From positions 1 through 41,021 of IMG/VR virus record IMGVR_UViG_3300048599_000828: 41,021 bases of DNA; one strand, given 5' to 3'. How positions within the stretch are numbered: position 1 is the first letter of the stretch; each line of letters begins with the position of its first letter. Below the pieces are notes generated by a model, which was not told the DNA's origin, did not search any database, and worked only from the letters and a program-made list of their open reading frames with translations. The position numbers were made by a program, and so were the translations under genes. This document shows positions 1-38,100 of this stretch, piece by piece. This stretch comes from a virus. Taxonomy: Duplodnaviria > Caudoviricetes.

Positions 1-234
1 ATGAGACTACGATCTGTGCTGGCGGCGAATCTACGCCGAGAAATGTCAGTGCGAAGCCTGACGCAGGTTGAGTTGTCTCGACGGTGCGATATCGCGCAAC
101 CACATATTTCCGCGTTGCTTAACGAGAAGAGCAGCACGACGATCGACACCGTGGAGCGCATCGCGTCCGCACTGGATATTTCGGCGGCTTCTTTGCTGCT
201 GCCGATTTCCGGCGAAGTCCTCTTGACTACCTAG
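1..234 (+). CDS. XRE/Cro-like HTH transcriptional regulator
   Basis: 77 aa; pattern LAANLRREM..LTQVELSRRCDIAQPHISALLNEKSSTTIDTVERIASALDI matches HTH_XRE. Confidence 0.88.
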   Translation: MRLRSVLAANLRREMSVRSLTQVELSRRCDIAQPHISALLNEKSSTTIDTVERIASALDISAASLLLPISGEVLLTT

Positions 235-250
235 AGATATTCTGTATATT
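223..250 (+). promoter_or_regulatory. Putative sigma70-type promoter (TTGACT-16 bp-TATATT)
   Basis: TTGACT at 223-228 and TATATT at 245-250 in a locally AT-rich patch just before the structured leader. Confidence 0.5.
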
Positions 251-251
251 G

Positions 252-470
252 GCCGGTGATGTGATTCACCGGCGCTCTTTAGCTCACATCTGAGCTACCG
301 GGTGCCAAGCACCGTTCGAGACGGTGTCACGCCGCACGACTGTGGCGTGGCCTGCCGGGATGCACCCGATCATGGATGCGCGTCTGACGACATGCGCCGA
401 TTTCTCACGCGTAGGAGTGACCTACGCTATTGGATGGGATCGGCACGCATTGTGGGGTGGCATCCATGAT
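252..470 (+). ncRNA. Highly structured leader / putative small RNA upstream of the recombinase
   Basis: Successive inverted repeats at 252-273, 280-297, 310-326, 328-349, 356-368, 392-401/439-450 and 409-427, plus an 11-bp long-range pair 369-379/460-470 that covers the ATG at 466. Confidence 0.5.
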
Positions 471-1350
471 TGTTGCATCGACGATTTCCGGCTACCTGGA
501 GGGCATCTACCTCCGGGAGAATTTTGGTCTTTCGGATGGCTATGTGGCGGAACTTCGCCGGGCCGTTCGCCAATTTTGCTCGCATTGCGGGTTCGAACCG
601 ACCGTCGACGAACTCTGCCCGCACCTCTTTTCCGGCTGGCTGAAATCACTGCTCGATGCTGGGCTTGCTCCTGCGACCATCAACAACAAGCGTCGGATGC
701 TGATGACAGTCTGGAAGGCGGCTTGTCGCTGGAAGCGATTGCCCAGGCCGAAGACGCGATCTGTCAAGAAGCTTGTGGAACCGTCGCCGATTCCGACCGC
801 GTGGACTCCAGACCAATGCGCTCGGATCTTCGACGCGTGCCGTCGCTTGCGAGGTTCGATTGCCGGTGTTCCGCGGGCAGCCTGGTGGCTGTCGCTGTTT
901 CTGGCGGTCTACTCGTGCGGGGAGCGGATTCGAGCGGTTCGGTTGGCGAAAACTCTGGATTGCGACATCGACGCCGGAACGATTTTACTGCGGTGGTCGA
1001 CGGTCAAGACAAGGAAAAATCGCCAGGTGTGGCTGACACCAGATGCGGTGTCGGCGATCCGGAGCATCTACTCGCCAACCAGAGAATTGCTTTGGCCGTG
1101 GCCATATGGGAAGAGGCATTTCTTCAGGCAGGCCAGAAGGATCATCGAGTCGGCCGGAGTTCCATGCCCGAAGGGCGAGGGAAAGAACCTGTTCCAACGG
1201 ATGCGTCGAACATCGGGAAGCTTGGTCGAGGCTGCTGGCGGAGACGGTGCGAGGCATCTTGGGAACACGCGGCAGGTATTCGAGAAGCACTATCGAGCCG
1301 CCGACATCTGCGGAGCTTCCCAGGTGCATCTACTTCCGGTCCCTCGCTGA
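466..1350 (+). CDS. Tyrosine recombinase/integrase family protein with atypical catalytic motifs
   Basis: SAM-like N domain (GLAPATINNKRRML); box I SCGERIRAV (Arg), VKTRK (Lys), FQRMRRT (HxxR-like), HLGN, C-terminal KHY. Start could be 430. Confidence 0.85.
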   Translation: MIVASTISGYLEGIYLRENFGLSDGYVAELRRAVRQFCSHCGFEPTVDELCPHLFSGWLKSLLDAGLAPATINNKRRMLMTVWKAACRWKRLPRPKTRSVKKLVEPSPIPTAWTPDQCARIFDACRRLRGSIAGVPRAAWWLSLFLAVYSCGERIRAVRLAKTLDCDIDAGTILLRWSTVKTRKNRQVWLTPDAVSAIRSIYSPTRELLWPWPYGKRHFFRQARRIIESAGVPCPKGEGKNLFQRMRRTSGSLVEAAGGDGARHLGNTRQVFEKHYRAADICGASQVHLLPVPR

Positions 1351-1398
1351 ATAGCGGTGGCCGTCTAGAAATCTCACACCCGGCACGGAGGCCAGGCC

Positions 1399-1869
1399 AT
1401 GCACGGCGCTAACCGCGCTCGCTCTGCGCTCACGCCCCGCCAGCGCGACATCCTCTCGCACATCGAGCGGTTCACCGCCGACGCCGGACACAGCCCCAAC
1501 GACCACCAACTCAGCCTGATGGCCGGACTTTCGCTCTCGGCCGTCCAGGGGCACCTGCGTCAGTTGAAACGTCTTGGGTCCATCGAGAGCGATCCAGCCG
1601 GGCCGCGTCGTGGGTGCGTGAGGATCGTCCAGTCGCCACTTCTGGCGTCACTGCCGGTGAACATTGCCGAGCCCGAATCTGGCCACACGTACGAGGAGGC
1701 ACGGAAGGACATTGGATTGTTCCTGGGGTTGATTCTGCTGGCTGCCCTGCTGGCCCTCCAGGGCTGCCGCGTGACCCAGGAATACTCGGTCAGCTACGAG
1801 CACCGTGAGGCCAGCGGCGAGGTTGTGAAGGCCGCGTGGAAGCTTTGCACAGAGGAGCCTAAGCGATGA
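1399..1869 (+). CDS. LexA-type winged-HTH N-terminal domain fused to a hydrophobic/lipobox-like segment
   Basis: LTPRQRDILSHI..GHSP....LS..AGLS.SAVQGHLRQLKRLGSIE matches the LexA DNA-binding domain. No S24 peptidase domain. TM-like IGLFLGLILLAALLALQGC. GGAGG RBS. Confidence 0.7.
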   Translation: MHGANRARSALTPRQRDILSHIERFTADAGHSPNDHQLSLMAGLSLSAVQGHLRQLKRLGSIESDPAGPRRGCVRIVQSPLLASLPVNIAEPESGHTYEEARKDIGLFLGLILLAALLALQGCRVTQEYSVSYEHREASGEVVKAAWKLCTEEPKR

Positions 1870-2048
1870 ACCAACCTGAATCGACAAAGCCCGACGACAC
1901 GATCCTCGTCAACGGCGTCCAGATCCGCCGGGAGCAGACCGGCAGCGGCGCGCCGGACAACCCCGGCCTGCGGCTCGGTAACGTCCGGGTCAGCCGGGCG
2001 ATCGTCGGAGGGCGGCCCAACTATCGGGCGCCATTCTACGTGCGGTGA
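1866..2048 (+). CDS. Hypothetical protein
   Basis: ATGA overlap with the upstream stop codon; 60 aa. Confidence 0.5.
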   Translation: MNQPESTKPDDTILVNGVQIRREQTGSGAPDNPGLRLGNVRVSRAIVGGRPNYRAPFYVR

Positions 2049-2072
2049 AACAGCCGGGCGTGTGACCCGGCA

Positions 2073-2113
2073 CCGGCCAGGCCGTGGCCTATCACTGGGG
2101 GCGGCCTGGCCGG
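2073..2113 (+). other. Strong intergenic hairpin (terminator/attenuator-like)
   Basis: Perfect 12-bp IR CCGGCCAGGCCG/CGGCCTGGCCGG; a T-rich tract follows about 10 nt later; a smaller hairpin lies just upstream. Confidence 0.45.
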
Positions 2114-2165
2114 ATGGAAATGGTTTGTTTTTCGTTCCACTAGCAGCGACACGGAGAGAAACGAG

Positions 2166-2453
2166 ATGGCAAAGGCAAAAGAGCGAGCGGTGATCGTTAC
2201 GACTTCCCACCGGGGCGTGTTCTTCGGATACGCGACCGACACGAGCGGCGACACGATCAAGTTGAAGCGTGCCCGCAACTGCGTGTATTGGTCGTCGGAC
2301 TGCAAGGGGTTTATGGGGCTCGCGTCCCAGGGCCCCACGGAGGCGTGCCGGATCGGTCCGGCAGCGGACATTGAACTGCGGAACGTCACCGCGGTTTTGG
2401 AGGTCACCGCGGACGCTGCCGCGCGGTGGGAATCCGCCCCCTGGCGATCGTGA
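2166..2453 (+). CDS. DUF6948-like small phage protein
   Basis: VIVTTSHRGVFFG...IKLKRARNCVYW...GLASQGP matches the recalled family; RBS GGAG; the usual neighbour is a Gly-rich repeat gene, as here. Confidence 0.7.
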   Translation: MAKAKERAVIVTTSHRGVFFGYATDTSGDTIKLKRARNCVYWSSDCKGFMGLASQGPTEACRIGPAADIELRNVTAVLEVTADAAARWESAPWRS

Positions 2454-2461
2454 GGTGCAAG

Positions 2462-2878
2462 ATGCAGGTTACCGCAGAGATCGCGGAACGCGCGAAGCGC
2501 TACGGAGCGTGCAAGGCACCGAAGGCCGGAACTCCGATTGAGCGACTTTCGTTCAGCCAGCTTGTGTGGGCTGAGAACAACCGACTGCTGACCAGAGACG
2601 AGGAAGAATCGCTCGTCCAGCCGGAGGCTCTGGTGCATGGGAAATTGCCGTTGTGGGCTTTCTCCGGCTACGGCTACGGCTCCGGCTACGGCTCCGGCTA
2701 CGGCTCCGGCTCCGGCTACGGCGACGGCTCCGGCTACGGCTCCGGCTACGGCTCCGGCTACGGCTACGGCGACGGCTACGGCTCCGGCTACGGCTCCGGC
2801 TACGGCTCCGGCTACGGCTCCGGCTACGGCTACGGCTCCGGCTACGGCTCCGGCTACGGCTCCGGCGACGGCCGCTGA
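2462..2878 (+). CDS. Protein with C-terminal (Y/S/D)G low-complexity repeat
   Basis: GAGG RBS upstream of ATG 2462; about 67-aa unique N-terminus followed by 35 xG dipeptides. Confidence 0.7.
   Translation: MQVTAEIAERAKRYGACKAPKAGTPIERLSFSQLVWAENNRLLTRDEEESLVQPEALVHGKLPLWAFSGYGYGSGYGSGYGSGSGYGDGSGYGSGYGSGYGYGDGYGSGYGSGYGSGYGSGYGYGSGYGSGYGSGDGR
2663..2872 (+). repeat. Hexanucleotide tandem array (TACGGC/TCCGGC/GACGGC) x35
   Basis: Read directly; only three unit types, no synonymous variation. Confidence 0.97.
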
Positions 2879-2992
2879 CCGCAACACAGGACCGCTGCGG
2901 CGGAGCCGTAGCGGACGGACTGGCACGACGCCAGGAGACAGGACAGCCTGCCGCTGTGACGGAACGCGGCGGCCGGAAACAGGAGGTTCGAC
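2879..2992 (+). promoter_or_regulatory. GGA-motif hairpin array (putative CsrA-binding leader or CsrB/RsmZ-like RNA)
   Basis: Nine GGA in 114 nt (2889, 2902, 2913, 2917, 2934, 2941, 2961, 2975, 2982); GGA loop in hairpin 2892-2914; ACGGAA hexaloop in hairpin 2950-2973; last GGA is the SD of csrA. Confidence 0.65.
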
Positions 2993-3163
2993 ATGCTGGT
3001 TCTGCAGCGAGACATCGACCAGGCAATCGTGATCGGCGGCGTGGTGGTGGTGCGCGTAGTGGACATTCGAGGCGGCCACGTCAAGCTCGGGATCGAGGCG
3101 CCAAGGGACGTGACGGTTCACCGCGAGGAAATCCAAGGCCAATCGCCGAGGGTAAAGCCATGA
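2993..3163 (+). CDS. csrA: Carbon storage regulator CsrA/RsmA family RNA-binding protein (56 aa, absent from ORF track)
   Basis: Own translation: MLVLQRDIDQAIVIGGVVVVRVVDIRGGHVKLGIEAPRDVTVHREEIQGQSPRVKP, colinear with CsrA (L2, L4, R6, G33, A36-P37, H43-R44-E45-E46); AGGAGG RBS at 2981-2986. Confidence 0.93.
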   Translation: MLVLQRDIDQAIVIGGVVVVRVVDIRGGHVKLGIEAPRDVTVHREEIQGQSPRVKP

Positions 3164-4122
3164 ATCCGGTCGGACAGGAACGGACGCAGGCCGGGCCATC
3201 CGACGTTGCGGAACACGTCACGAATGGCCAGCAGCAACGCGAGACGATTTGGGCGCCGCCAGGTCGAGCGGTCCACGTCGACATGCCAAACGATCGATAC
3301 CACCGCCTCGGCAATTGGTCTCACAGCCAACTCAAATACCTGCCCGAAGAGCCCGAGTCGTTCGAATGGAAGTTCATCCTACGCCGCGAACTGTTCGAGC
3401 CGACGCGAGCGATGATTAAAGGCACCGCCTTTCACGCGTGGCTGCTGGAAGGAATCACGCCCACCGAGGTTCCGGCCGACTACCTCACGAAATCAGGCGG
3501 GGTGCGGCCTGGAGGATGGGACGCGATCGCCGCCGACTTGCCGGGCGTTCCGGTTCTCAAGGCCGACGAACTGGTAGAGCTCCGCTACGCTCGGGAGAAC
3601 TGCTACAAGGATCCGGAGATCCGTGCATACCTGGAGACAGCCGGCTGGGTAGAGCATTCCCTCTTCGCGGTCGACGACCTGACCGGACTTCCGACGCGTG
3701 TCCGCCTCGACAAGCTCTGCCGATTCGCCGACGGCCTGGAATGCCTCGACCTGAAATTCAGCGGCGGCTGCGATGACCGCTGGATCGAGCAGCAGGTCAC
3801 CAAGATGTCCTACTACAGCCAGGCTGGCATGTACTGGGACCACGTCGAGCGTGCCTACGAGACACCCAAGCGATGGGTCTTTCTGTTCGTCGAGAACACA
3901 GCACCGTTCCGTGCTCGCCTCAAGGAGCTTGGCGGCCACGACGTGGAGCTCGGGCTGCGTCACACGCGGATTCAGTTGGCTGACCTCAAGGCCCGCATCG
4001 ACGCCGACAACTGGAACGGACACGGGTTTGGAATCGTCGGCATCACGCAGGTCGCCAAGTGGAAATGGGACGAGAACCCAAGCCCCGTCCAGCCGTTTGA
4101 AGAATTCACCCCCTACAAGTAA
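3160..4122 (+). CDS. PD-(D/E)XK exonuclease, RecE/ExoVIII-like (DUF3799 type)
   Basis: YH...SHSQLK, GTAFHAWLLE, RVRLDKL..CLDLK, YYSQAGMY motifs. True start is ATG 3160 overlapping the csrA stop; the ORF-track extension through the repeat is artefactual. Confidence 0.85.
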   Translation: MNPVGQERTQAGPSDVAEHVTNGQQQRETIWAPPGRAVHVDMPNDRYHRLGNWSHSQLKYLPEEPESFEWKFILRRELFEPTRAMIKGTAFHAWLLEGITPTEVPADYLTKSGGVRPGGWDAIAADLPGVPVLKADELVELRYARENCYKDPEIRAYLETAGWVEHSLFAVDDLTGLPTRVRLDKLCRFADGLECLDLKFSGGCDDRWIEQQVTKMSYYSQAGMYWDHVERAYETPKRWVFLFVENTAPFRARLKELGGHDVELGLRHTRIQLADLKARIDADNWNGHGFGIVGITQVAKWKWDENPSPVQPFEEFTPYK

Positions 4123-4149
4123 CCCGCTTTTCCCAAGGAGAGTCGTTAC

Positions 4150-5247
4150 ATGGCAAGCGTCCCCGCAACACGTCCGCAAGCGAACCTTCCCGCGATCGCA
4201 CCGTCGCGGCTTCCGTACCACCCTGCCGCAGAGAAACACTACGGCATCGACCCAACGACCTGGCGGGCCCTAGTGGAGTCGACATTCCCATCGGCCAAGA
4301 CGCCCGAGGCCGTCCTCCTGGCCCTGTCCTACTGCAAGGCCCGCCGGCTCGACCCGTTCAAGCGGCCGGTGCACATCGTTCCCATCTGGGACAAGGAGCG
4401 AAGGTGCTACGTCGAGACCGTTTGGCCTGGAATCGGCGAATACCGCACCACGGCTTTTCGCACCAAGCAGTACGCCGGCCACGACCCGGCCGAGTTCGGC
4501 CCGATGGTCAAGAAGACCTGGCCGGACGGCGACGGCGAGGTGACGGTCGAGTTCCCGGAGTGGGCTCAGATGACCGTATATCGGTTGATCGACGGCCAGC
4601 GGTTCCCATTCCCCGGGCCGCGTGTCTATTGGATGGAGACTTACGCCTCGAAGAAGAGCGGCGCTCCCAACCAAATGTGGACCGACTCGCCCACAGGAAT
4701 GATCGGCAAGTGCGCGGAAGCGGCAGCGTTGCGCGGGGCGTTTCCCGAGGAGATCGGCGACTGGACTGCCGACGAGGCGAGTGAGCGGTTCCTGCAAGGC
4801 CGCGCGAGCGTTGAGATCCGCGAGAACGGCACGGCGTCCCGGGCCGCGTCGGTGATCATCGACGAACCGAAGCCGGATTCGCTGCCGAACCCCGAGGCGG
4901 CCCGGCAGGCCCCACAGCAGCCCGCCCCCGAGCCCGAGGAAGCCACCGAGACCGCCGACGACCAGCAGGAGCCGGCCGGCGATCCAGAAGCCACCCAATC
5001 CGACACGCGGCAGCCGTCGCAGGAGGATCGCGCCAACGCATTGGCGATCTACGACGGGAAAATCGAGGACTGCACCACGGCCGCCGACCTCGACGAGCTC
5101 GCCCAGGACATCGAGACCGACCCGGCACTGATCGAGATCGACCGCGGGCCGCTGCGGGCGATGATCGCGAAGCGTCGGGAGGCCATCGCGTCGCAACCGC
5201 GGTCCGCCACGCGGGCCAGGAAGCCGTCGCAGAAATCGGTGTTCTAG
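4150..5247 (+). CDS. bet: Single-strand annealing recombinase, Bet/RecT family
   Basis: CKARRLDPFKRPVHIVP, GIGEYRTTAFRT, MIGKCAEAAALRGAFPEEIG; acidic linker and helical C-terminal domain; downstream of exonuclease; AAGGAG RBS. Confidence 0.88.
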   Translation: MASVPATRPQANLPAIAPSRLPYHPAAEKHYGIDPTTWRALVESTFPSAKTPEAVLLALSYCKARRLDPFKRPVHIVPIWDKERRCYVETVWPGIGEYRTTAFRTKQYAGHDPAEFGPMVKKTWPDGDGEVTVEFPEWAQMTVYRLIDGQRFPFPGPRVYWMETYASKKSGAPNQMWTDSPTGMIGKCAEAAALRGAFPEEIGDWTADEASERFLQGRASVEIRENGTASRAASVIIDEPKPDSLPNPEAARQAPQQPAPEPEEATETADDQQEPAGDPEATQSDTRQPSQEDRANALAIYDGKIEDCTTAADLDELAQDIETDPALIEIDRGPLRAMIAKRREAIASQPRSATRARKPSQKSVF

Positions 5248-5257
5248 GAGGCCAATC

Positions 5258-5473
5258 ATGCAGCTTGCGGAGCCTGGTATCGAAATCCTGGCGGTCCAGA
5301 AGGGAAGCGAGACGTACATCGTGCTGTGGGACGATCGTACGCCGACAAGCACCGTAACGCACCACGTCGGCCGCTGGGCCGCAGACCCAAGCCTGTCGTT
5401 TACGTGGTACGACGCCGCGATCGCGTGCCAGGCCGTCAGCAGGCGGCAAGACGGGAACTGTTCAGGGAGGTAG
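5258..5473 (+). CDS. Conserved hypothetical protein (Planctomycete-type)
   Basis: AGGAGG RBS; motif LAVQKGSETYIVLWDD...GRWAADPSLSFTWYDAA, recalled from Planctomycete proteins. Confidence 0.65.
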   Translation: MQLAEPGIEILAVQKGSETYIVLWDDRTPTSTVTHHVGRWAADPSLSFTWYDAAIACQAVSRRQDGNCSGR

Positions 5474-5475
5474 CC

Positions 5476-5769
5476 ATGCCCTTTATCGAGCTCACCATCA
5501 CCACCGACACGGCCGAGGCCGAGTACCGCGTATTCTACGCCACGTCTCAGGAGGTCCCTGCGGGAAACGACGGCCCGGGCTATGGCGGCCTGGACATCGC
5601 CGGAGTGCACTGCGTCGCTATTCGGCAGCACGGCTCCATGCCGCTCGTCGGCCAGGTGCTGGACGCGATCCAGGCCGACATGGTCGCCGGGTTCTGGAGG
5701 CGGTACAGCCACGCCGAGGTGCTGGAGCTTTGCGCGGCGGACGCGGCGGGGAAGGCGGTGGTGGTATGA
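5476..5769 (+). CDS. Hypothetical protein
   Basis: GGGAGG RBS before ATG 5476; stop overlaps next start. Confidence 0.6.
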   Translation: MPFIELTITTDTAEAEYRVFYATSQEVPAGNDGPGYGGLDIAGVHCVAIRQHGSMPLVGQVLDAIQADMVAGFWRRYSHAEVLELCAADAAGKAVVV

Positions 5770-6368
5770 GCTCGCAGAGAAAGCCCATCGGGAAACGATT
5801 GCGTTTCGAGATATTCAAGCGCGATGGGTTTACCTGCCAGTACTGCGGCGGCAGGCCTCCCGCTGTCGTACTCCAGGTCGATCACGTCATCGCAGTATCG
5901 CATGGCGGAACGAACGAGATCGAAAACCTTATCACCGCCTGTTTCGAGTGCAACTCTGGAAAATCGGACAGGAATCTGGCGGACGTACCTGATTCGATCA
6001 AGCAGAAGATCGCAAGGCAAAGAGAGTCGTCCGAGCAGATTTCCGAGTACTACAAGTTTCTGGAGCAGGCGAGACAGGAACGCGAGCGTGTTGTCGGAGA
6101 GCTCGGATCGTACTGGTGCGACTCGATTGTCTCGAAGTCGGAACGCGGTCAGTGGACGTGGTCTCAAGACAGGAAGCGTTCCGCGCGCCGGTTCTTGCAG
6201 TCACTGAACCCGAACGAAATCCGCGATGCCATTGACCTGGCGATCTTGCGACTAGCCCCCTCCCTTGACGACGACTCCGCGGCCTGGAAGTACTTTTGCG
6301 GCATCTGCTGGAGCAAGATCCGCGAATCTCGAAGCGATTGCCGCAGGACGATTTACGACGAGTTCTAA
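5766..6368 (+). CDS. HNH endonuclease
   Basis: RFEIFKRDGFTCQYCG...LQVDHVIAVSHGGTNEIENLITACFECNSGK. Confidence 0.93.
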   Translation: MSSQRKPIGKRLRFEIFKRDGFTCQYCGGRPPAVVLQVDHVIAVSHGGTNEIENLITACFECNSGKSDRNLADVPDSIKQKIARQRESSEQISEYYKFLEQARQERERVVGELGSYWCDSIVSKSERGQWTWSQDRKRSARRFLQSLNPNEIRDAIDLAILRLAPSLDDDSAAWKYFCGICWSKIRESRSDCRRTIYDEF

Positions 6369-30916: not shown

Positions 30917-32101
30917 ATGGCGATCAACAAGGTCTTTCCAGGCGATCCGCGCGGCCGGCCCAGCGCCAGGGCCCATAACGAGCTCGTCGACGCGATCGCG
31001 ACGCTCCGGCAACTCCCCACGGGCGGCGCCGGCCAGGCCAGCCCGCCGCGGCGATCGAGCGGGTTTATCCGCGTCCAGAACGCCACGGGCGGCGATCGCG
31101 ACCGCGGCCAGGTCGTCGGCCTCGAGGCCCCGCTATTCAAGCCCAGCGACGACGAGGACGCATTTCTCGAGCGGGTCCAGTTCGTCGGGGTCGCGGCCGA
31201 CGCCGAGATACACGGGAGCAAGTTCGCGATTCTCCTCGAGCCCCTGGCGGCCGACGATGTCGGATGGGCGGCCGTCTCCGGGGTGGTGCCCGCGTTGATC
31301 TCGGTTGGCGACGAGGGTCACAGCTTCGCCGAGCTCGGGAGCGACGCCCCGAAGCTACTCAAGAGCTCCGGATCCGGACCGGTGCGGATCCTCTGGAAAG
31401 AGACCGGTAAAGGAACCAAGAAGGCGTACGTCTACTTGGGGCCGACCGCCGATTCCGGATTCCGAATCAGGAACGAGACCGGGAAGGATCTCGAGCTCGG
31501 CCAGGTCGTCGGGATCGACTATCCGATTCACCACCCCGGCACCGACCGCACACGGCGGCCGGCGTACTTCGACGACTACGACACCGACGACGTCCGCAAG
31601 ATCGACCTGTTCGAGCAGGACGCCGGCGACATGGTCGGCGTCAAGCCGGCGGCAAGGCACGTCGGGCGGTTCGCGATCACGTCGGCCGCGATCAAGAAGT
31701 GGGAGACCGGCCCGGCCGTGGCATCCGGCGTGGCGATTTGCAAGGTCACGTTCCCGCGAAACGGGCAGTTCGAATTCGCGGACGTCAGCAGGGAACGGCC
31801 AACGGTCGAGTCCTTAACCGCGTGCCCAGTGGGCGCGGCGCAGATCCTTTGGGCCGGCTCGCCGTGGGCGATCGTCCGAGTCGGCTCGAAGGTGCAACAG
31901 GGCTTCCGGGGAATCCTGCTCGGCAAGCTTGAGATGGGCAAGTCGGCCCGGGTGCAACTCCTGCGTGATGGCATGGTGATCGAGGCGTTCGACCACATGC
32001 TCGTGCGCGGCGAATCGATGGAGAAGGACACGAAAGTTTGGTTGGGTGTTGAGGACGGAATTTACTACGTGGTTGAGGGCTCTTGCCCCGCCGACGATTA
32101 A
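30917..32101 (+). CDS. Putative tail tip protein with internal domain duplication
   Basis: SARAHNELVDAI start; two copies of GF.(V/I).N.TG.D...GQVVG...FAI....AV(A)SGV...ILW. Confidence 0.65.
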   Translation: MAINKVFPGDPRGRPSARAHNELVDAIATLRQLPTGGAGQASPPRRSSGFIRVQNATGGDRDRGQVVGLEAPLFKPSDDEDAFLERVQFVGVAADAEIHGSKFAILLEPLAADDVGWAAVSGVVPALISVGDEGHSFAELGSDAPKLLKSSGSGPVRILWKETGKGTKKAYVYLGPTADSGFRIRNETGKDLELGQVVGIDYPIHHPGTDRTRRPAYFDDYDTDDVRKIDLFEQDAGDMVGVKPAARHVGRFAITSAAIKKWETGPAVASGVAICKVTFPRNGQFEFADVSRERPTVESLTACPVGAAQILWAGSPWAIVRVGSKVQQGFRGILLGKLEMGKSARVQLLRDGMVIEAFDHMLVRGESMEKDTKVWLGVEDGIYYVVEGSCPADD

Positions 32102-32114
32102 CAAGGATGCGACG

Positions 32115-35100
32115 ATGGTGAACGTGAATCATTGGATCGGTGGGGCCCCGGCGGTTGCGACGAAGGACGAAGTCAAGTTTCCGCTCAACGTGCAACCGGG
32201 GACTGTGATTACCGTCGGGGTGGGAGGACAGTACATCAGCCACACCGCGCTGTCAGCGTCCGACCACGACGCAGCCGTGGCCGTTGCCGCGGCCTGGAAC
32301 AACTCCCCGGCGGCGCAGATCTCCAAGAGCTACGCGATTGTCAGCGATACCGGCGTCGAATTTACGGCCAAGGAAGCCGGGGCGGCTTACGGTCCCATCA
32401 CGGGGTCCGTTTCTGGCGTCGCGGTCGGGCCGAGCAACGAGCAGCAGTTGATTGTTTTGCCACCCGAGAAGTATTTCGGGACGTTCCAACTCGTATTTTC
32501 CGGGTCGACAACCGCCTCTCTCACGTTCAGCGCGACCGCCGGCCAGGTCCAGGCGGCCCTCGAGGCAATCCCGTCGATCGGCGCCGGGAATGTGACCGTC
32601 TCCGCGACCGCGGGCGGTGCACTTCTCGTTGGTTTTCAGGGGGGGCTCGCGGCGAAGAATCTGCCCATGATGACGATCGTGTCTTTCATGCGGGGCCTGT
32701 CGCCGGTGATCGCAACCGAGGTCGAAAAGGGTGGCTATGGCGTCGACCATGTCCTCGAAATGACGGTCGGATCAACGATCGACGGAGGACAATATGCGTT
32801 CGAGTTCGAGGGGAAGCGGTCGGGTTACATCCCTTGGAATTCGCCGGCCGCCACGGTCCAGGCGACGCTTGAGGGAATTTCGACGATCGGGACCGGCAAC
32901 ATCCAGGTGAGCGACGGGGCGACCGGCGGAAAATTCGTGATCACGTTCACGGGCACACTGGGGCACCAGTTGCCGCCGACACTGATCGCCGACACTGACC
33001 TCGACGAGGTCCCGGGGATCGATATCTATCAGATCTCCGAAGGCCGGGATAACGCGACCGAGAAAGACCGGATTACGGTCAACACGGCCGGAGTCGTGGC
33101 GGGAACCTGGTGGATCGATTTTAACGGCGAGTCGACGGTGGGAATGAACGTTAACGCGGCGGCATCGGACGTCAAGGCGGCCCTCGTCGGCCTGGCGTCG
33201 ATCGGCGCGTCGGACGTGGACGTCACCGATGCGGGAACCAGGGACTATGTAATCACGTTCAGCGACACCGGCGGGTGGGCGAACACGGTCATGCCGGCGT
33301 TGATTCCTCGAGCGGCGTGGTCGATCGACGACGTGCTGCTGGCAACCCAGTCACAGATCGGAATGGCCGGCACCAACGAGCTACAGCACATCTGGGTCAG
33401 TGGGTACAACTCGGGGACGTTCACCATCTCGCATGGCGGCGGAACAACCTCTGCGATCACATGGAACGCGACGGCCGCCACGGTCAAGGCGGCGCTCGGG
33501 GCGTTGAGCTCGATTGGCGGGGCGGCCAATGTCGACATCACGTCGCCGACGGTGGGGCAGTGGTACGTGGGGTTCCAGAATGGCCGATCTAGCCGGCCGA
33601 TGGACCTGATCGCCATCAACTCCGGAGGGTTACTGTGGGCCGTGCCGGCAAGCGTAGACGACAAGCAAGACGGGACCGCAGATGCCCACCCTCAGTTCCA
33701 TGCGGGGGTCGGCAACAACCCGACTGGTGGCACATGGAAGATTTCGACGAATTACGGCGACACGCCACCCATTCCATATACTTCCACCTCGGGGGAAATC
33801 GTTTCGGCGCTCGAATCAGTGTTCGGGTCTGGAAACGTCACGTTTAACGAATCCCTGTTCTTTTACGAGATCAATCTCGGAATCTACGTAACGGCCCAGG
33901 CAGTCGACATTGACCTCCAAGGAGGATACCCGGCACCGGAGCCCTATATTGCTAACCTTGTCAACGGACATCCGCCGCAAAATGAGCTCCGATCTCTAAA
34001 GCTCGGGACATGCGACGGTGGAACCTACTCCCTGACGTTCAATGGATACACCACGGCCGCGCTGCCGCACTCCGCAGGAAACTCCGCCATCGAGTCTGCG
34101 CTCCAGGGGATCACATCGATCGGTGCGGGAAACGTCGGCGTCTACACCCTGTATGGATCGTCCGAACGCGTGATCGAATTCTGCGGATCAAAAGCCGCGC
34201 AGGACATCACGCAGCCGATCACCGTCAACAACCACCTGACCTATAGCGGCGCCGGCTCGCGCGCGTCGACCAGGCGGATCAAGGAAGGGAAGCTCGGAGA
34301 CGACTGCATCCAGAAGCTCGCCTATCAGACACTCCCGGCCGGCGGGACCTATAGCCTCACCTTCATGGGCCAGACCACGACCGGGATTGCCTACAGCGCG
34401 GAGGATTCGGCGGTTCAGTCTGCCATCGAGGCGTTGCCGACAATCGGAGTCGGGAACGTGTCGGTAACGGGTTCCATGTCGGGCGGGTGGTACTGTCGGT
34501 TTACCGGCGACAAGGCGTCGACTCCGCTCCAGACGTTCGCGGTCCACGACGAGACGATCGTGTGCTCGCAACCCGCCCCGACGGTACAACAGTTGATTCG
34601 CGGACAAAACGGCCAGCCTGAAACGCAATCCGTACGCCTGGCCGACGGCGTCACGTCGGGCACCTGGACGCTCGGGTTCAATGGTCACACGACGGTCCCG
34701 CTCGCCTATTCCGCGAGTGCGTCGACCGTGACGGCGGCACTGGAAAGCCTGCCCGACATCGAGGGGGGAAACGTGTCGGTCTCCGGCGGCCCGGCCAACG
34801 TCGATCGGATGATCGTTACCTGGATCGGAACCGAGTCCGGGAAACCACAGGAATTGCTCACGTGGGAAAGTCACCTCCGCCGCAAGGGCAATATCCAGTT
34901 TTCCACGCTCACAATGGGAGCCAACGGGATTCCGCCGATCCAGTCGGTCACAATGCCGACCCAAGCCAGCGGCGGGTACTGGCAACTGGCATGGAAGCCG
35001 GCCGGCGCGATGCTGATCGAACAAACGTCGTGGATTCCCTACGGGGCGTCGGCCGACGACGTCAAGGCGGCGATCGAAGATTTCGATTCGATCGGGCCCG

Positions 35101-38100
35101 GCGAGGTCGACGTCACGTCGACGACGGGAGGCCAGTACATCGTCACTTGGCAGGGACCGAGGTACGGAACAACGGCCGTCCCACTACTGAAGGCGGCCGG
35201 GCAGTTGACCAGGTCGGTCGACGTTCTCGTCGATTCAAACTACGTCAAGCCGAAGGCAGGCAAGGCGTGCGTTCAAAAGCTAACGATCAGATACTGCACC
35301 GGAGGGCGGGTGCAGATCGTGCGTTACAATAGCGCGTCGGCTGACGCGCATGCCGTCGATGTACTCAACCCAGTGATGCAAAGCGAGCACATCAGCGCCT
35401 ATGAGACCGTCGAGATCCCATTCGACATCGGTCAACTGACCGAATTGCTCAAGCGCCGCCTCGGACTGTTCGGGATCGAAGTCGACATCAGTATCGAGGC
35501 TAAGGAGATCCCAGGCGGTGGAGAGTGGACAATCTCGTTTAACCGCCCGATGATCAAAAGTTGGCGATTCGCAAGCTTCAACACCGGCGACGGAGTTTAC
35601 ACCGACCTCATCTTCGCCGACTATGGCTTGGGACACGCCATCTACGAAAACACAGGCCGGGAATATGGGGCGGATTTCTACGCGCTCACAATTCCGGTCA
35701 TCGGCTTCGCGCCCTATTCCACGCGTACGTACAGCGACTCCGACGAATATCAGTTCTGGGTTGTGCAGGGTAACGACAAGTCGATCCTAATGAACCGCAT
35801 GGAGAAAAAAGTCTGGAAGAAGCAGGACGGACACAAAGACAGAAACCACATTCAGTCGGTAATTGTTCAGGACGTCGTCGATTGTGTTTACAGGCTCCAG
35901 TTCGACGGGCAGGAGACGGCAGCCATTGCATTGAGCGCGACGGCCGACGAGGTCAAGACAAAGCTCGAGGCGTTGTCAACGATCGGGACCGGACGCGTCG
36001 CCGTGAGACCATACACCCATCTGGTGCCGCAAGTCGAGTACCCGGGGCTGTTCGACCGGGTCCCGGACCCTGGAAAGTTCTATATCGAGTTCATTGGGGA
36101 CAAGTCGCTACAGAACCAACCGGAGATTACCGGTTCGTTTGTCACTGCAAAACCGAAGGGTGTCGATATCGAGGTCGGACCGGCGAAAGGTCCGATGGGA
36201 ACAAATCCAACCTATTCAGTCTACGACCTGAAAATCAATCTTCAGGTGAACGCACCGGTTTACCTTAGTCTGTGGTGGCCTCAACACACGATGCGAATCG
36301 ACGGGAGCACAACGGCGGCACAGATCAAGTGGGAATTGCAGAAGGTCCGCGAGGCCGGACATGCTCCCGCCAACTCCGCGGATCTCGAAATCTTCGACAT
36401 GCCGTCGGTCACCGAGACTCGCGAGGTGTGGGTCAACCCAAACTACGAAACGCGGACCATCGGGTTTAAGGTCTTTCGGTTCCAGTTCACCGGCGCCAAT
36501 TGGGGAAATCCGTACGACTTGCCAGCCTTTGAGAGCATGTTCAAACCGCGGTGCGGCGACCCAGCATTCCAGTACCACTACGAGCGAGTGGAGACCGGCC
36601 GGGACGGCACCAACGCAATGGCAGGCGTCAAGTTCGGCTATCGCACCAGCGACGCGGAGACGCAATTCAGCGACTACAGCTTGCTCTACCTGACGGAAGG
36701 CGGAGATCCGCGGATAATGTCGTTGGGCGACCTTGAAAACAGGTATTTCGTCCGCCTCATCCCTACGTCTGGCACCTGGACGCTTACTTTCGCTCGCACC
36801 GACCAGGACGGGAACCCTCAGCCTGGTACGGGAGATACCGCGGTACTCAATTGGAATTCAACCTCCACAGAAGTCCAGGCGGCCCTCGAGTCCTTGCCGT
36901 CGATCGGCGTTGGGAATGTGACCGTGGTCGGCGACCCGCAGATTTCTCCGATGGAGCTCGACCAGGCGATGAACAATCCTTGGATCATCAACACCCCGGG
37001 AGAAAAGGAGAAGCGTTACCCGGCGTTTACGATCACCTTTGTCAACCAACTAGGCATGAGACAAATCCCCGGCCGAGCCCTCCTTGCTCAGAGCTACATG
37101 CCGCGGCCCGGGATAAGCCCGAAGATCACGGTGAACGACTTCCAGCTTGCCGGAGCCGCTCAAAACACGATTATTTCGCTGACATACACTGGTTACGTGA
37201 GCAGTGCCGACGTCGAGATATGGGGTGACGGGAACGTCAAGTATCATTCACCGTCAGTCCACCTTACCAATCTGATGATGGACCTGACGAACACGTCGGA
37301 GCAAGCCGTTGCCGAGCGTGAGGCGTACGCCAAGAAGAACTGCGAAGCACTGGAAAGCGCGGTCGGATGGTGGTACGGGCCCGGGAGCGTCGATGTCACA
37401 TTCGAGTACACGAACGACGCGATGCGGACGTTCCATTTTGAGTTCAAGGGGTCGCGGTTGCATGAATCCGTAAATGAGTTCCGGGCCTTCGGACCGCAGC
37501 AGGGCCCGACCCCGGAGCTCGACCATGCATACATGCAGTCGTACCGGAGGGGACAGCCCGACCTGCAACGGGTGCAACTTCCCTACGCGTTTAAGGAACT
37601 AGGGACAGCAGCACGCAATCACATTTTCCATATTGAGTTTACCCTAACCGATGACGCGGTCTCGAGCGACGACGACGAAACCACAATCGGCTACGTGAAC
37701 TTGTTTGGCCTGGAAAAGGCGGCTCTGTATATCCCGAAGGCGTGGAGGGCCTCAGACATCAACGATTGGAAGGTAGGCGTTGCTAACCAATACTCGAAGT
37801 TCCTCACGAACGGGTTTGTTCCAACGCAACAGGGACACACTCCGATCACCATCCCGGATTCCGGGACGTCGTACATGGCACTCAAGAATATCAAGTTCCA
37901 CGACTCGCAACCTGACAACGAGCGGTCTCCCGACCGAGTGCGGGCGTTTGACGTGGAAATGATGAGTGAGTTTTCGGCGATGCCTTTCTTGTTTGAAAGC
38001 GTGTTCACGGCAGCCGATGCTCCTGGTGGCTTTTCGCGACGCGTCGCGCAATGGGCTCGCCCGGCGGGCGCCGGTGAGGTCGCGACAGGGACGTGGACGC

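What the first reader, a model, noticed from the sequence alone, without database searches (positions are those of the whole stretch)
2879..3163. Phage-encoded CsrA preceded by its own GGA-hairpin array (autoregulatory leader or cis-encoded Csr sponge)
Seen: an unannotated 56-aa CsrA gene (2993-3163) with intact R44. The 114-nt gap before it holds nine GGA (roughly two expected from base composition). One sits in the loop of a 10-bp stem (2892-2914), one in an ACGGAA hexaloop on a 9-bp stem (2950-2973), several occur as CAGGA, and the last is the SD itself. Established: CsrA/RsmA binds A(N)GGA hairpin loops, and CsrB/RsmZ sRNAs are arrays of such motifs. Inference: this is a self-contained phage post-transcriptional switch, either CsrA autorepression, a sensor of host CsrA level, or a processed RNA that titrates host CsrA.
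Basis: partly seen in the sequence, partly recalled or inferred. Interest (0 to 1): 0.82.

Follow-up and report, generated by a model that had tools for sequence, protein, structure and literature searches.

The report
CsrA-binding leader of phage csrA gene
This prophage, likely from a planctomycete bacterium, carries its own copy of the translation regulator gene csrA behind a 114-base stretch holding nine copies of CsrA's GGA motif, which likely lets CsrA shut off its own synthesis and possibly that of the recombination gene next door, rather than acting as a separate decoy RNA.

Summary
Observation confirmed, with one correction: about four GGA are expected by chance, not two. The 114-nt gap holds nine GGA (33 of 20,000 dinucleotide shuffles), four CAGGA (0 of 20,000) and two GGA-loop stems of 9-10 bp (0 of 20,000). 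The gene is a true CsrA (Pfam, fold, R44), but has Asp at residue 7 (0 of 180 homologues) and a short C-terminal helix.

Best reading: a multi-site CsrA operator inside the early operon. The ACGGAA hairpin lies 21 nt from the Shine-Dalgarno GGA, as in E. coli csrA autorepression. The csrA stop overlaps the start of the exonuclease VIII gene, which may be coupled. Across 112 other viral csrA leaders, a GGA-site score ranks first of 64 triplets against same-contig starts (p 3e-4); raw GGA counts were not enriched, and dense arrays are rare (4 of 112) and do not align.

A stand-alone sponge is unsupported: no Rfam match, promoter or terminator. Hairpin 1 is antisense to the upstream gene's repeat and is predicted to lose its loop in context. 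Binding is untested. The scan has reported this kind before on other DNA. New variant of a known kind; interest 0.4.

The parts
2879..2992 (+). Intercistronic leader of csrA with nine GGA (four CAGGA, two ACGGA); predicted multi-site CsrA operator
   Evidence: highest GGA count of 41 modelled gene starts
2892..2914 (+). Hairpin 1: 10-bp stem with GGA triloop and no preceding A (non-canonical); forms only in local folding
   Evidence: (-18.4 kcal/mol)
2901..2912 (+). 12-nt exact antisense of the repeat unit in the upstream gene; overlaps the loop and 3' arm of hairpin 1
   Evidence: 18 of 20,000 shuffles
2950..2973 (+). Hairpin 2: 9-bp stem with ACGGAA hexaloop directly on the stem (ANGGAX type); best predicted CsrA site; closing pair G-C instead of the usual C-G
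   Evidence: (-15.6 kcal/mol); PMC4005645 passages
2980..2986 (+). Shine-Dalgarno CAGGAGG, also a CAGGA motif; its GGA is 21 nt from the hairpin-2 GGA
2993..3163 (+). csrA, 56 aa; R44, V42, L2, I47, V40, L4 and R6 kept; D7 and Q5 unusual; helix only at residues 45-48; stop overlaps the next start (ATGA)
3160..4122 (+). Exonuclease VIII (RecE-like, DUF3799 / phrog_412); candidate coupled target; three GGA at 3172, 3177 and 3182 just after its start
4150..5247 (+). RecT/Bet recombinase with its own Shine-Dalgarno
2462..2878 (+). Upstream gene ending in a (GGC TAC/TCC/GAC)n Gly-Tyr/Ser/Asp repeat (2666-2875), the pairing partner of 2901-2912
2166..2453 (+). DUF6948 gene, usual partner of the Gly-Tyr repeat gene
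223..250 (+). Only sigma-70-like promoter match on the left arm (10 of 12); candidate start of the early polycistronic mRNA; weak evidence
   Evidence: 3 found in 12 kb, 1.4 expected

Best explanation
The 114-nt gap holds nine GGA motifs ending in csrA's own ribosome-binding site and is likely a multi-site CsrA operator through which the phage's CsrA would repress its own translation. Shown: the motifs, the ACGGAA hairpin 21 nt upstream of the Shine-Dalgarno GGA, a CsrA-family gene, and the ATGA overlap with the exonuclease VIII gene. Inferred: a CsrA dimer docks on hairpin 2 and bridges to the Shine-Dalgarno site, blocking ribosome loading; the single-stranded CAGGA copies load further dimers cooperatively; the negative feedback caps the dose of a potent global regulator. 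Host CsrA paralogues would feed into the same operator. More weakly inferred: repression passes to the exonuclease VIII gene through translational coupling and the three GGA just after its start.
For: Local statistics: two GGA-loop stems of 9 bp or more in 0 of 20,000 shuffles and four CAGGA in 0 of 20,000. csrA is the only one of 41 modelled starts with a GGA-loop stem of 7 bp or more in its last 45 nt. Geometry: the 21-nt spacing lies within the 10-63 nt bridging range (optimum over 18), and E. coli CsrA represses its own translation through four leader sites, one over the Shine-Dalgarno (PMC7652899, section 4 and passages). An ANGGAX hexaloop directly on a stem is the high-affinity form (PMC4005645 passages). 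Population: in 112 non-redundant viral csrA leaders (-130 to -20, Shine-Dalgarno excluded) against 259 other starts on the same contigs, the GGA-site score is 4.2 against 2.9, p 3.4e-4, rank 1 of 64 triplets, with CAG, CGG and ACG next; scores of 12 or more occur in 4 of 112 against 0 of 259. There is a weaker trend in 68 genome-borne, mostly planctomycete csrA leaders (p 0.01). The array tracks csrA, not the recombination genes: none of 85 loci of RecE/RecT relatives has one upstream. The protein keeps 7 of the 8 residues most important in E. coli (list in PMC6692469 passage; alignment) and folds as CsrA. Coupling: the exonuclease gene's Shine-Dalgarno is weak (-6.4 against -10.7 kcal/mol) and mostly paired (unpaired 0.24-0.26), with precedent in iraD (PMC5574718 abstract).
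Against: There are no binding or expression data. Raw GGA count was not enriched in 77 viral csrA leaders against 414 other starts (1.82 against 1.64, p 0.28). The structure-matched loop test was borderline for viral loci (rank 6-13 of 64, p 0.05-0.11). The composite score was devised after seeing this window, gene starts were called by heuristics, and the loci are not phylogenetically independent. Dense arrays are a minority (4 of 112) and four of them do not align, so there is no covariation evidence. The phage CsrA has D7 (0 of 180 homologues) and Q5 (1 of 180) and a helix broken after residue 48 (3 of 179), so it may bind weakly. Hairpin 1 is lost in native context, and hairpin 2 varies from 0.16 to 0.99 by context. 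Leaders of csrA genes that precede an exonuclease are no richer in GGA than others (8 against 104 loci, p 0.53), so control of recombination is not a general theme.
Confidence: 0.48

Rival explanations
1. Host-CsrA sensor: the same operator is read mainly by host CsrA paralogues. The phage protein is a weak binder that serves as a coupling ORF for the exonuclease gene, or modifies host CsrA as a heterodimer partner.
For: D7 in 0 of 180 homologues, at a position whose alanine mutant impairs E. coli and C. jejuni CsrA (PMC6692469 passages). The helix is short, and helix residues contact the looped-out base in RsmE complexes (PMC4005645 passages). Two planctomycete genomes hold 13 and 4 CsrA matches. 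Plasmid RsmQ heterodimerises with host Rsm proteins (PMC9928087 passages).
Against: R7 is the weakest of the eight listed residues and the other seven are kept. Position 7 is variable among homologues (K, R, H, Q, L and others). The host is only inferred.
Confidence: 0.2
2. By-product: a purine-rich spacer with ordinary stabilising or processing hairpins. Hairpin 1 arose as a fold-back copy of the upstream repeat, and CsrA binding there has no role.
For: Hairpin 1 reads as a quasi-palindrome of the repeat unit, its GGA being the complement of a TCC codon. Two other regions of the window reach nine GGA. The sequence is not conserved in any relative.
Against: This does not explain hairpin 2, the four CAGGA (0 of 20,000 shuffles), the position directly before a csrA gene, or the enrichment at other csrA leaders.
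Confidence: 0.17
3. Cis-encoded sponge: the gap is cut out, or the early mRNA is abundant enough, so that it titrates host CsrA like CsrB or RsmZ.
For: Size and motif number resemble RsmZ (eight GGA; PMC4005645 passage). The four CAGGA resemble the CsrB repeat CAGGA(U/A/C)G. Fold z-score is -3.0.
Against: No Rfam match at E up to 10 in 1-6000. No promoter-like site in 1500-4500 and no terminator-like site at the gap. The last motif is csrA's ribosome-binding site. Only one canonical loop is present, against four in RsmZ. Making CsrA and a CsrA sponge from one transcript is self-cancelling unless the phage protein is weak (inference).
Confidence: 0.1
4. Translation-coupled switch: ribosome traffic on the upstream Gly-Tyr repeat decides whether 2901-2912 pairs with the repeat or forms hairpin 1, which changes how many GGA sites CsrA can see.
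For: With the repeat free, hairpin 1 has probability 0.0 and hairpin 2 0.16; with the repeat fully masked, 1.0 and 0.97. A 12-nt antisense match occurs in 18 of 20,000 shuffles.
Against: Partial ribosome masks do not restore hairpin 1, since any free copy of the 12 suffices. Shine-Dalgarno accessibility is unchanged (0.36 against 0.37). No anti-repeat element follows the repeat gene in 62 evaluable of 80 DUF6948 loci.
Confidence: 0.05

Closest known systems
E. coli csrA leader autorepression (Yakhnin et al. 2011, as summarised in PMC7652899)
   Same: Several CsrA sites in csrA's own leader, one over the Shine-Dalgarno; negative feedback
   Different: Here it is a prophage, intercistronic in an early operon, with nine motifs rather than four, a probable planctomycete host and a divergent CsrA; untested
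E. coli iraD repression through a translationally coupled upstream ORF (PMC5574718)
   Same: CsrA sites on the start region of a short ORF whose stop overlaps the next start, and a paired downstream Shine-Dalgarno
   Different: Here the short ORF is csrA itself and the downstream gene is a recombination exonuclease; coupling is untested
CsrB / RsmZ / RsmY sponge RNAs
   Same: Dense GGA and CAGGA array of about 110 nt with hairpin loops
   Different: No Rfam match, no detected promoter or terminator, ends in a ribosome-binding site, one canonical loop only
Mobile-element CsrA homologues (30 phages incl. RsmM, PMC7366521; plasmid RsmQ, PMC9928087; PHROG 9500/5527)
   Same: csrA carried by a phage
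   Different: The passages read describe no GGA-rich leader or autoregulation for them; this protein lacks the RsmM C-terminal extension and has D7

Membership tests
CsrA/RsmA protein family (PF02599) | Profile match above the curated cut-off | tested here: met
   70.7 bits against 27; phrog_9500
CsrA/RsmA protein family (PF02599) | CsrA fold | tested here: met
   AF2 monomer pLDDT 87; Foldseek TM 0.81-0.84 to CsrA/RsmE; helix only at 45-48
CsrA/RsmA protein family (PF02599) | RNA-contact residues R44, V42, L2, I47, V40, L4, R6, R7 | tested here: inconclusive
   7 of 8 kept; R7 is Asp, seen in 0 of 180 homologues
CsrA/RsmA protein family (PF02599) | Homodimer that binds GGA RNA | not testable with these tools
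   needs EMSA or ITC; no complex prediction was run
CsrA-repressed mRNA leader (csrA autoregulation type) | A GGA site overlapping the Shine-Dalgarno | tested here: met
   CAGGAGG at 2980-2986
CsrA-repressed mRNA leader (csrA autoregulation type) | Upstream ANGGAX hairpin within bridging distance (10-63 nt) | tested here: met
   ACGGAA loop, 21 nt; pairing probability 0.16-0.99 by context
CsrA-repressed mRNA leader (csrA autoregulation type) | Motif conservation or enrichment in relatives | tested here: inconclusive
   score enriched; raw count not; loop test borderline; no homologous leader
CsrA-repressed mRNA leader (csrA autoregulation type) | GGA-dependent repression of translation | not testable with these tools
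   needs a reporter assay
CsrB/RsmZ/RsmY sponge sRNA | Match to the Rfam models | tested here: not met
CsrB/RsmZ/RsmY sponge sRNA | Own promoter and intrinsic terminator (recalled feature) | tested here: not met
   none at the gap by consensus scan; the scan covers sigma-70-type promoters only
CsrB/RsmZ/RsmY sponge sRNA | Many GGA displayed in loops or single strands | tested here: inconclusive
   nine GGA; one canonical loop; 5 of 9 with unpaired probability above 0.6 in the gap-only fold, 1 of 9 in long context
CsrB/RsmZ/RsmY sponge sRNA | Discrete small RNA species | not testable with these tools
   no RNA run laid on the region
Diversity-generating retroelement target (hairpin after a variable repeat; features recalled) | Reverse transcriptase and adenine-rich template repeat nearby | tested here: not met
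   no PF00078 in G000 (record 78% complete); no template repeat and only three codon kinds in the repeat

The most novel reading that the evidence does not exclude
The phage has turned a weakened CsrA (Asp7, clipped helix) into a self-sensing coupling ORF: a nine-site operator counts total host plus phage CsrA and, through the csrA-recE overlap and three more GGA in recE, sets the dose of RecE/RecT recombination, while the same mRNA soaks up host CsrA. One site was built by fold-back from the neighbouring gene's repeat and can be hidden by pairing with it.
Probability: 0.1. Interest if true: 0.72.

Novelty: new variant of a known kind. Interest (0 to 1): 0.4.

Why it matters
Phage-borne csrA genes were catalogued in 2020 (30 phages, PMC7366521), and that paper said loss-of-function tests were still needed. 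My searches showed no reported RNA target for one. This locus supplies a compact protein-RNA pair testable in E. coli, plus a small statistical case that phage and planctomycete csrA genes are autoregulated. Two planctomycete genomes checked carry several CsrA paralogues, and my two literature searches on planctomycete CsrA listed nothing on their targets. If coupling to RecE holds, phage recombination would be tied to a host global regulator. The mechanism itself is textbook, which caps the interest.

Tried and rejected
Diversity-generating retroelement (GGA triloop after NNC codons; idea from recall): no reverse transcriptase, no template repeat. Rejected.

Known RNA family: none in 1-6000.

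Phage-wide regulon of GGA hairpins on ribosome-binding sites: no other of 41 modelled starts has a stem of 7 bp or more. The gene model missed at least the genes at 3160 and 6365.

Array as a leader of recombination genes (lead from earlier notes): in 85 loci of RecE/RecT relatives, the best upstream score averaged 9.5 against 9.8 downstream in the 62 long loci, none reached 16, and csrA was present in 2 of 85, neither adjacent.

Conserved anti-repeat element: none in 62 evaluable of 80 DUF6948 loci; 18 ran off the contig or had no repeat.

Close relatives for covariation: best CsrA relatives only 53-64% identical; no INPHARED phage hit; exonuclease not found in viral contigs or in 401 genomes of the phylum sample; gap not matched at length in 401 genomes; repeat-gene N-terminus gave one 9-residue hit; four GGA-rich leaders do not align.

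Expression: 20 runs with small word shares; the two RNA runs laid (X4, X19) gave no contig on either stretch, which shows nothing either way.

Atlas look-up of the repeat protein named no family. No complex prediction was run, since a pass would follow from likeness to solved CsrA dimers.

Full report
CONTEXT. The window is the whole record G000, classed as a provirus, 78% complete. The identical CsrA is on record on contigs up to 372 kb. The left arm runs on the + strand: HTH repressor, integrase-like gene, LexA-type HTH, DUF6948, a Gly-Tyr repeat gene, csrA, exonuclease VIII, RecT, HNH and a replication initiator, followed by head and tail genes. A planctomycete host is inferred, not shown. 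Most of the 80 best csrA loci in named genomes are Planctomycetota (the query alignment was planctomycete-like, so this is biased). The integrase has relatives in 18 of 301 genomes of the order that holds a Thermoguttaceae genome, best 38% identical (no control outside that order), and that best locus also carries a csrA.

OBSERVATION. The coordinates are right. The gap 2879-2992 has nine GGA. The expectation is 3.8-4.2 by shuffling (nine or more in 43 and 33 of 20,000) and 2.7 from the + strand density. Two other regions of the window also reach nine; they show no strong GGA hairpins. So the raw count is significant but not unique. The structure is more telling. Of 986 + strand GGA, 4 sit in loops of stems of 9 bp or more, and 2 of these are in the gap. 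In 20,000 dinucleotide shuffles, two such stems occurred 0 times, four CAGGA 0 times (mean 0.27) and six A(N)GGA 135 times (mean 1.8). The region folds with z -3.0. A contig of public run X1 is identical over 2886-3036; its independence from the source sample is not established.

THE TWO HAIRPINS DIFFER. Hairpin 2 has an ACGGAA hexaloop directly on the stem, the high-affinity ANGGAX form described for RsmE, although its closing pair is G-C rather than C-G (PMC4005645, passages). Its GGA is 21 nt from the Shine-Dalgarno GGA, inside the 10-63 nt bridging range (PMC7652899, section 4). Hairpin 1 has a bare GGA triloop. Its loop and 3' arm (2901-2912) are the exact antisense of a 12-nt unit present 12 times in the upstream gene (18 of 20,000 shuffles). 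With the repeat included, hairpin 1 has probability 0.0. It returns to 1.0 only if the repeat is fully masked or pairing is limited to 35 nt, and partial ribosome masks do not rescue it. Hairpin 2 ranges from 0.16 to 0.99 and Shine-Dalgarno accessibility does not change. I infer that hairpin 1 arose as a fold-back copy of the repeat. It is not conserved in 62 evaluable of 80 DUF6948 loci.

THE PROTEIN. It is a CsrA by profile, sequence and predicted fold. Of the eight residues ranked most important in E. coli (R44, V42, L2, I47, V40, L4, R6, R7; PMC6692469, passages), seven are kept. Residue 7 is Asp, seen in 0 of 180 homologues, and residue 5 is Gln, seen in 1 of 180. The helix spans only residues 45-48, and 3 of 179 proteins have two or more Gly/Pro at 48-52. 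Binding may be weaker than usual (inference).

RELATIVES. No close relative exists in the collections searched, so covariation could not be tested. I tested enrichment instead. Viral csrA loci came (best 80 of 448); 180 usable hits collapsed to 112 non-redundant plus the window. Named genomes gave 68.

Results against: in the first 77 loci the raw GGA count was 1.82 against 1.64 at 414 other starts (p 0.28), although GGA-loop stems of 6 bp or more were 0.19 against 0.09 (p 0.007). The structure-matched test ranked GGA 11th, 13th and 6th of 64 triplets in viral loops (p 0.05, 0.11, 0.06) and 1st, 12th and 2nd in genome loci (p 0.002, 0.34, 0.05).

Results for: a composite score (GGA, preceding A, loop position), with the Shine-Dalgarno zone excluded, gave 4.2 against 2.9 at 259 same-contig starts (p 3.4e-4, rank 1 of 64; next CAG, CGG, ACG). 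In the intergenic subset it gave 4.45 against 2.68 (62 against 134; rank 2 behind CAG). Scores of 12 or more occurred in 4 of 112 against 0 of 259. The window scores 16 and only L040 (17) is higher among the 112. In 3.45 Mb of fetched DNA, both strands, 27 stretches reached a sliding score of 16; they include this gap and the csrA leaders of L040 (fetched twice), L051 and L238. These leaders do not align, which suggests separate origins. Caveats: the score was devised after seeing the window, gene starts are heuristic, and the loci are not independent.

WHAT IS CONTROLLED. No other of 41 modelled starts in this phage has a GGA-loop stem of 7 bp or more near its start, so the clear target is csrA itself. 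Its stop overlaps the exonuclease VIII start (ATGA), whose Shine-Dalgarno is weak and mostly paired. Three GGA follow at 3172-3184, the most among 33 window starts and more than in any of 28 other csrA-coupled genes; these may simply reflect codons. A recombination-type exonuclease follows csrA in 8 of 70 next genes scanned (70 of 85 called), but those leaders are not GGA-richer (p 0.53). Relatives of this RecE/RecT pair carry no upstream array. The array therefore goes with csrA, and coupling to RecE is a locus-specific possibility.

MECHANISM. Most likely (0.48) a CsrA dimer binds hairpin 2 and bridges to the Shine-Dalgarno, with extra CAGGA sites loading more dimers, so that the phage's CsrA limits its own synthesis. 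Next is a host-only sensor (0.2): two planctomycete genomes hold 13 and 4 CsrA matches, and heterodimers are known for plasmid RsmQ (PMC9928087, passages). Together, a functional CsrA operator is about 0.7. By-product 0.17, sponge 0.1, translation-coupled switch 0.05. The sponge lacks an Rfam match and a promoter or terminator, and the array ends in a ribosome-binding site.

KNOWN AND NEW. Phage csrA genes are in print (30 phages; PMC7366521, passages). csrA autorepression through four leader sites is known in E. coli (PMC7652899, passage), and repression through a coupled short ORF is known for iraD (PMC5574718, abstract only). The csrA-TldR loci are chromosomal, not phage-borne (10.1101/2025.07.22.666180, passages). 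Searches listed no paper whose title or abstract start describes a phage csrA with its own GGA leader; I read only the listings, the library lacks most subscription papers, and no supplements were read. Earlier unchecked notes of this scan report the same kind on other genomes; they are leads, not support. Verdict: real feature, textbook mechanism in a new setting, untested; new variant of a known kind; interest 0.4.

Noticed in passing
window 2901-2912 and 2666-2875: A 12-nt exact antisense copy of the upstream gene's tandem repeat unit forms the loop and 3' arm of hairpin 1; it looks like a fold-back duplication and gives alternative pairing.
   Followed up: yes
window 3172-3184: Three GGA (incl. 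CAGGA and ACGGA) just after the exonuclease VIII start codon; possible second CsrA operator, or only codon choice.
   Followed up: partly
window 2666-2875: The Gly-Tyr/Ser/Asp repeat uses only GGC alternating with TAC, TCC or GAC. DUF6948 is followed by such a repeat gene in nearly all of 80 viral loci, often with a shared C-terminal domain ending in about EREIIGEC; no function found.
   Followed up: partly
L040 about 1865-2000 (same record as L190): Viral csrA leader with three GGA-loop hairpins of 8-12 bp including an AGGGAUC loop; a cleaner array than the window's.
   Followed up: partly
L325 upstream of csrA at about 522: Leader of a csrA in a Tepidisphaeraceae genome contains ACAGGGAUGU in a hairpin, close to the E. 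coli SELEX consensus, plus a second GGA-loop hairpin.
   Followed up: no
L070 (csrA at about 855 and 1871): Viral contig with two csrA genes about 1 kb apart, both with Gly/Pro-broken C-terminal helices like the window's; one has a GGA-rich leader.
   Followed up: no
L069 about 1070-1260, L109 about 1830-2000, L315 about 2225-2415: GGA-rich hairpin chains not directly before csrA: about 890 nt upstream of csrA, before a DUF6948 gene, and just downstream of a csrA.
   Followed up: no
P0009-P0158; L090, L091: Many proteins carry two or more CsrA-like domains in one chain (tandem, possibly single-chain dimers), including in viral contigs.
   Followed up: no
window 430-1350: The integrase-like gene (PF00589, below cut-off) lies inside the left-arm operon, in the same direction as and directly behind the HTH repressor gene, after a hairpin-rich 195-nt spacer.
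   Followed up: no
window 32046-40415: A 2,789-codon ORF with tail-protein and sheath-like profile matches.
   Followed up: no
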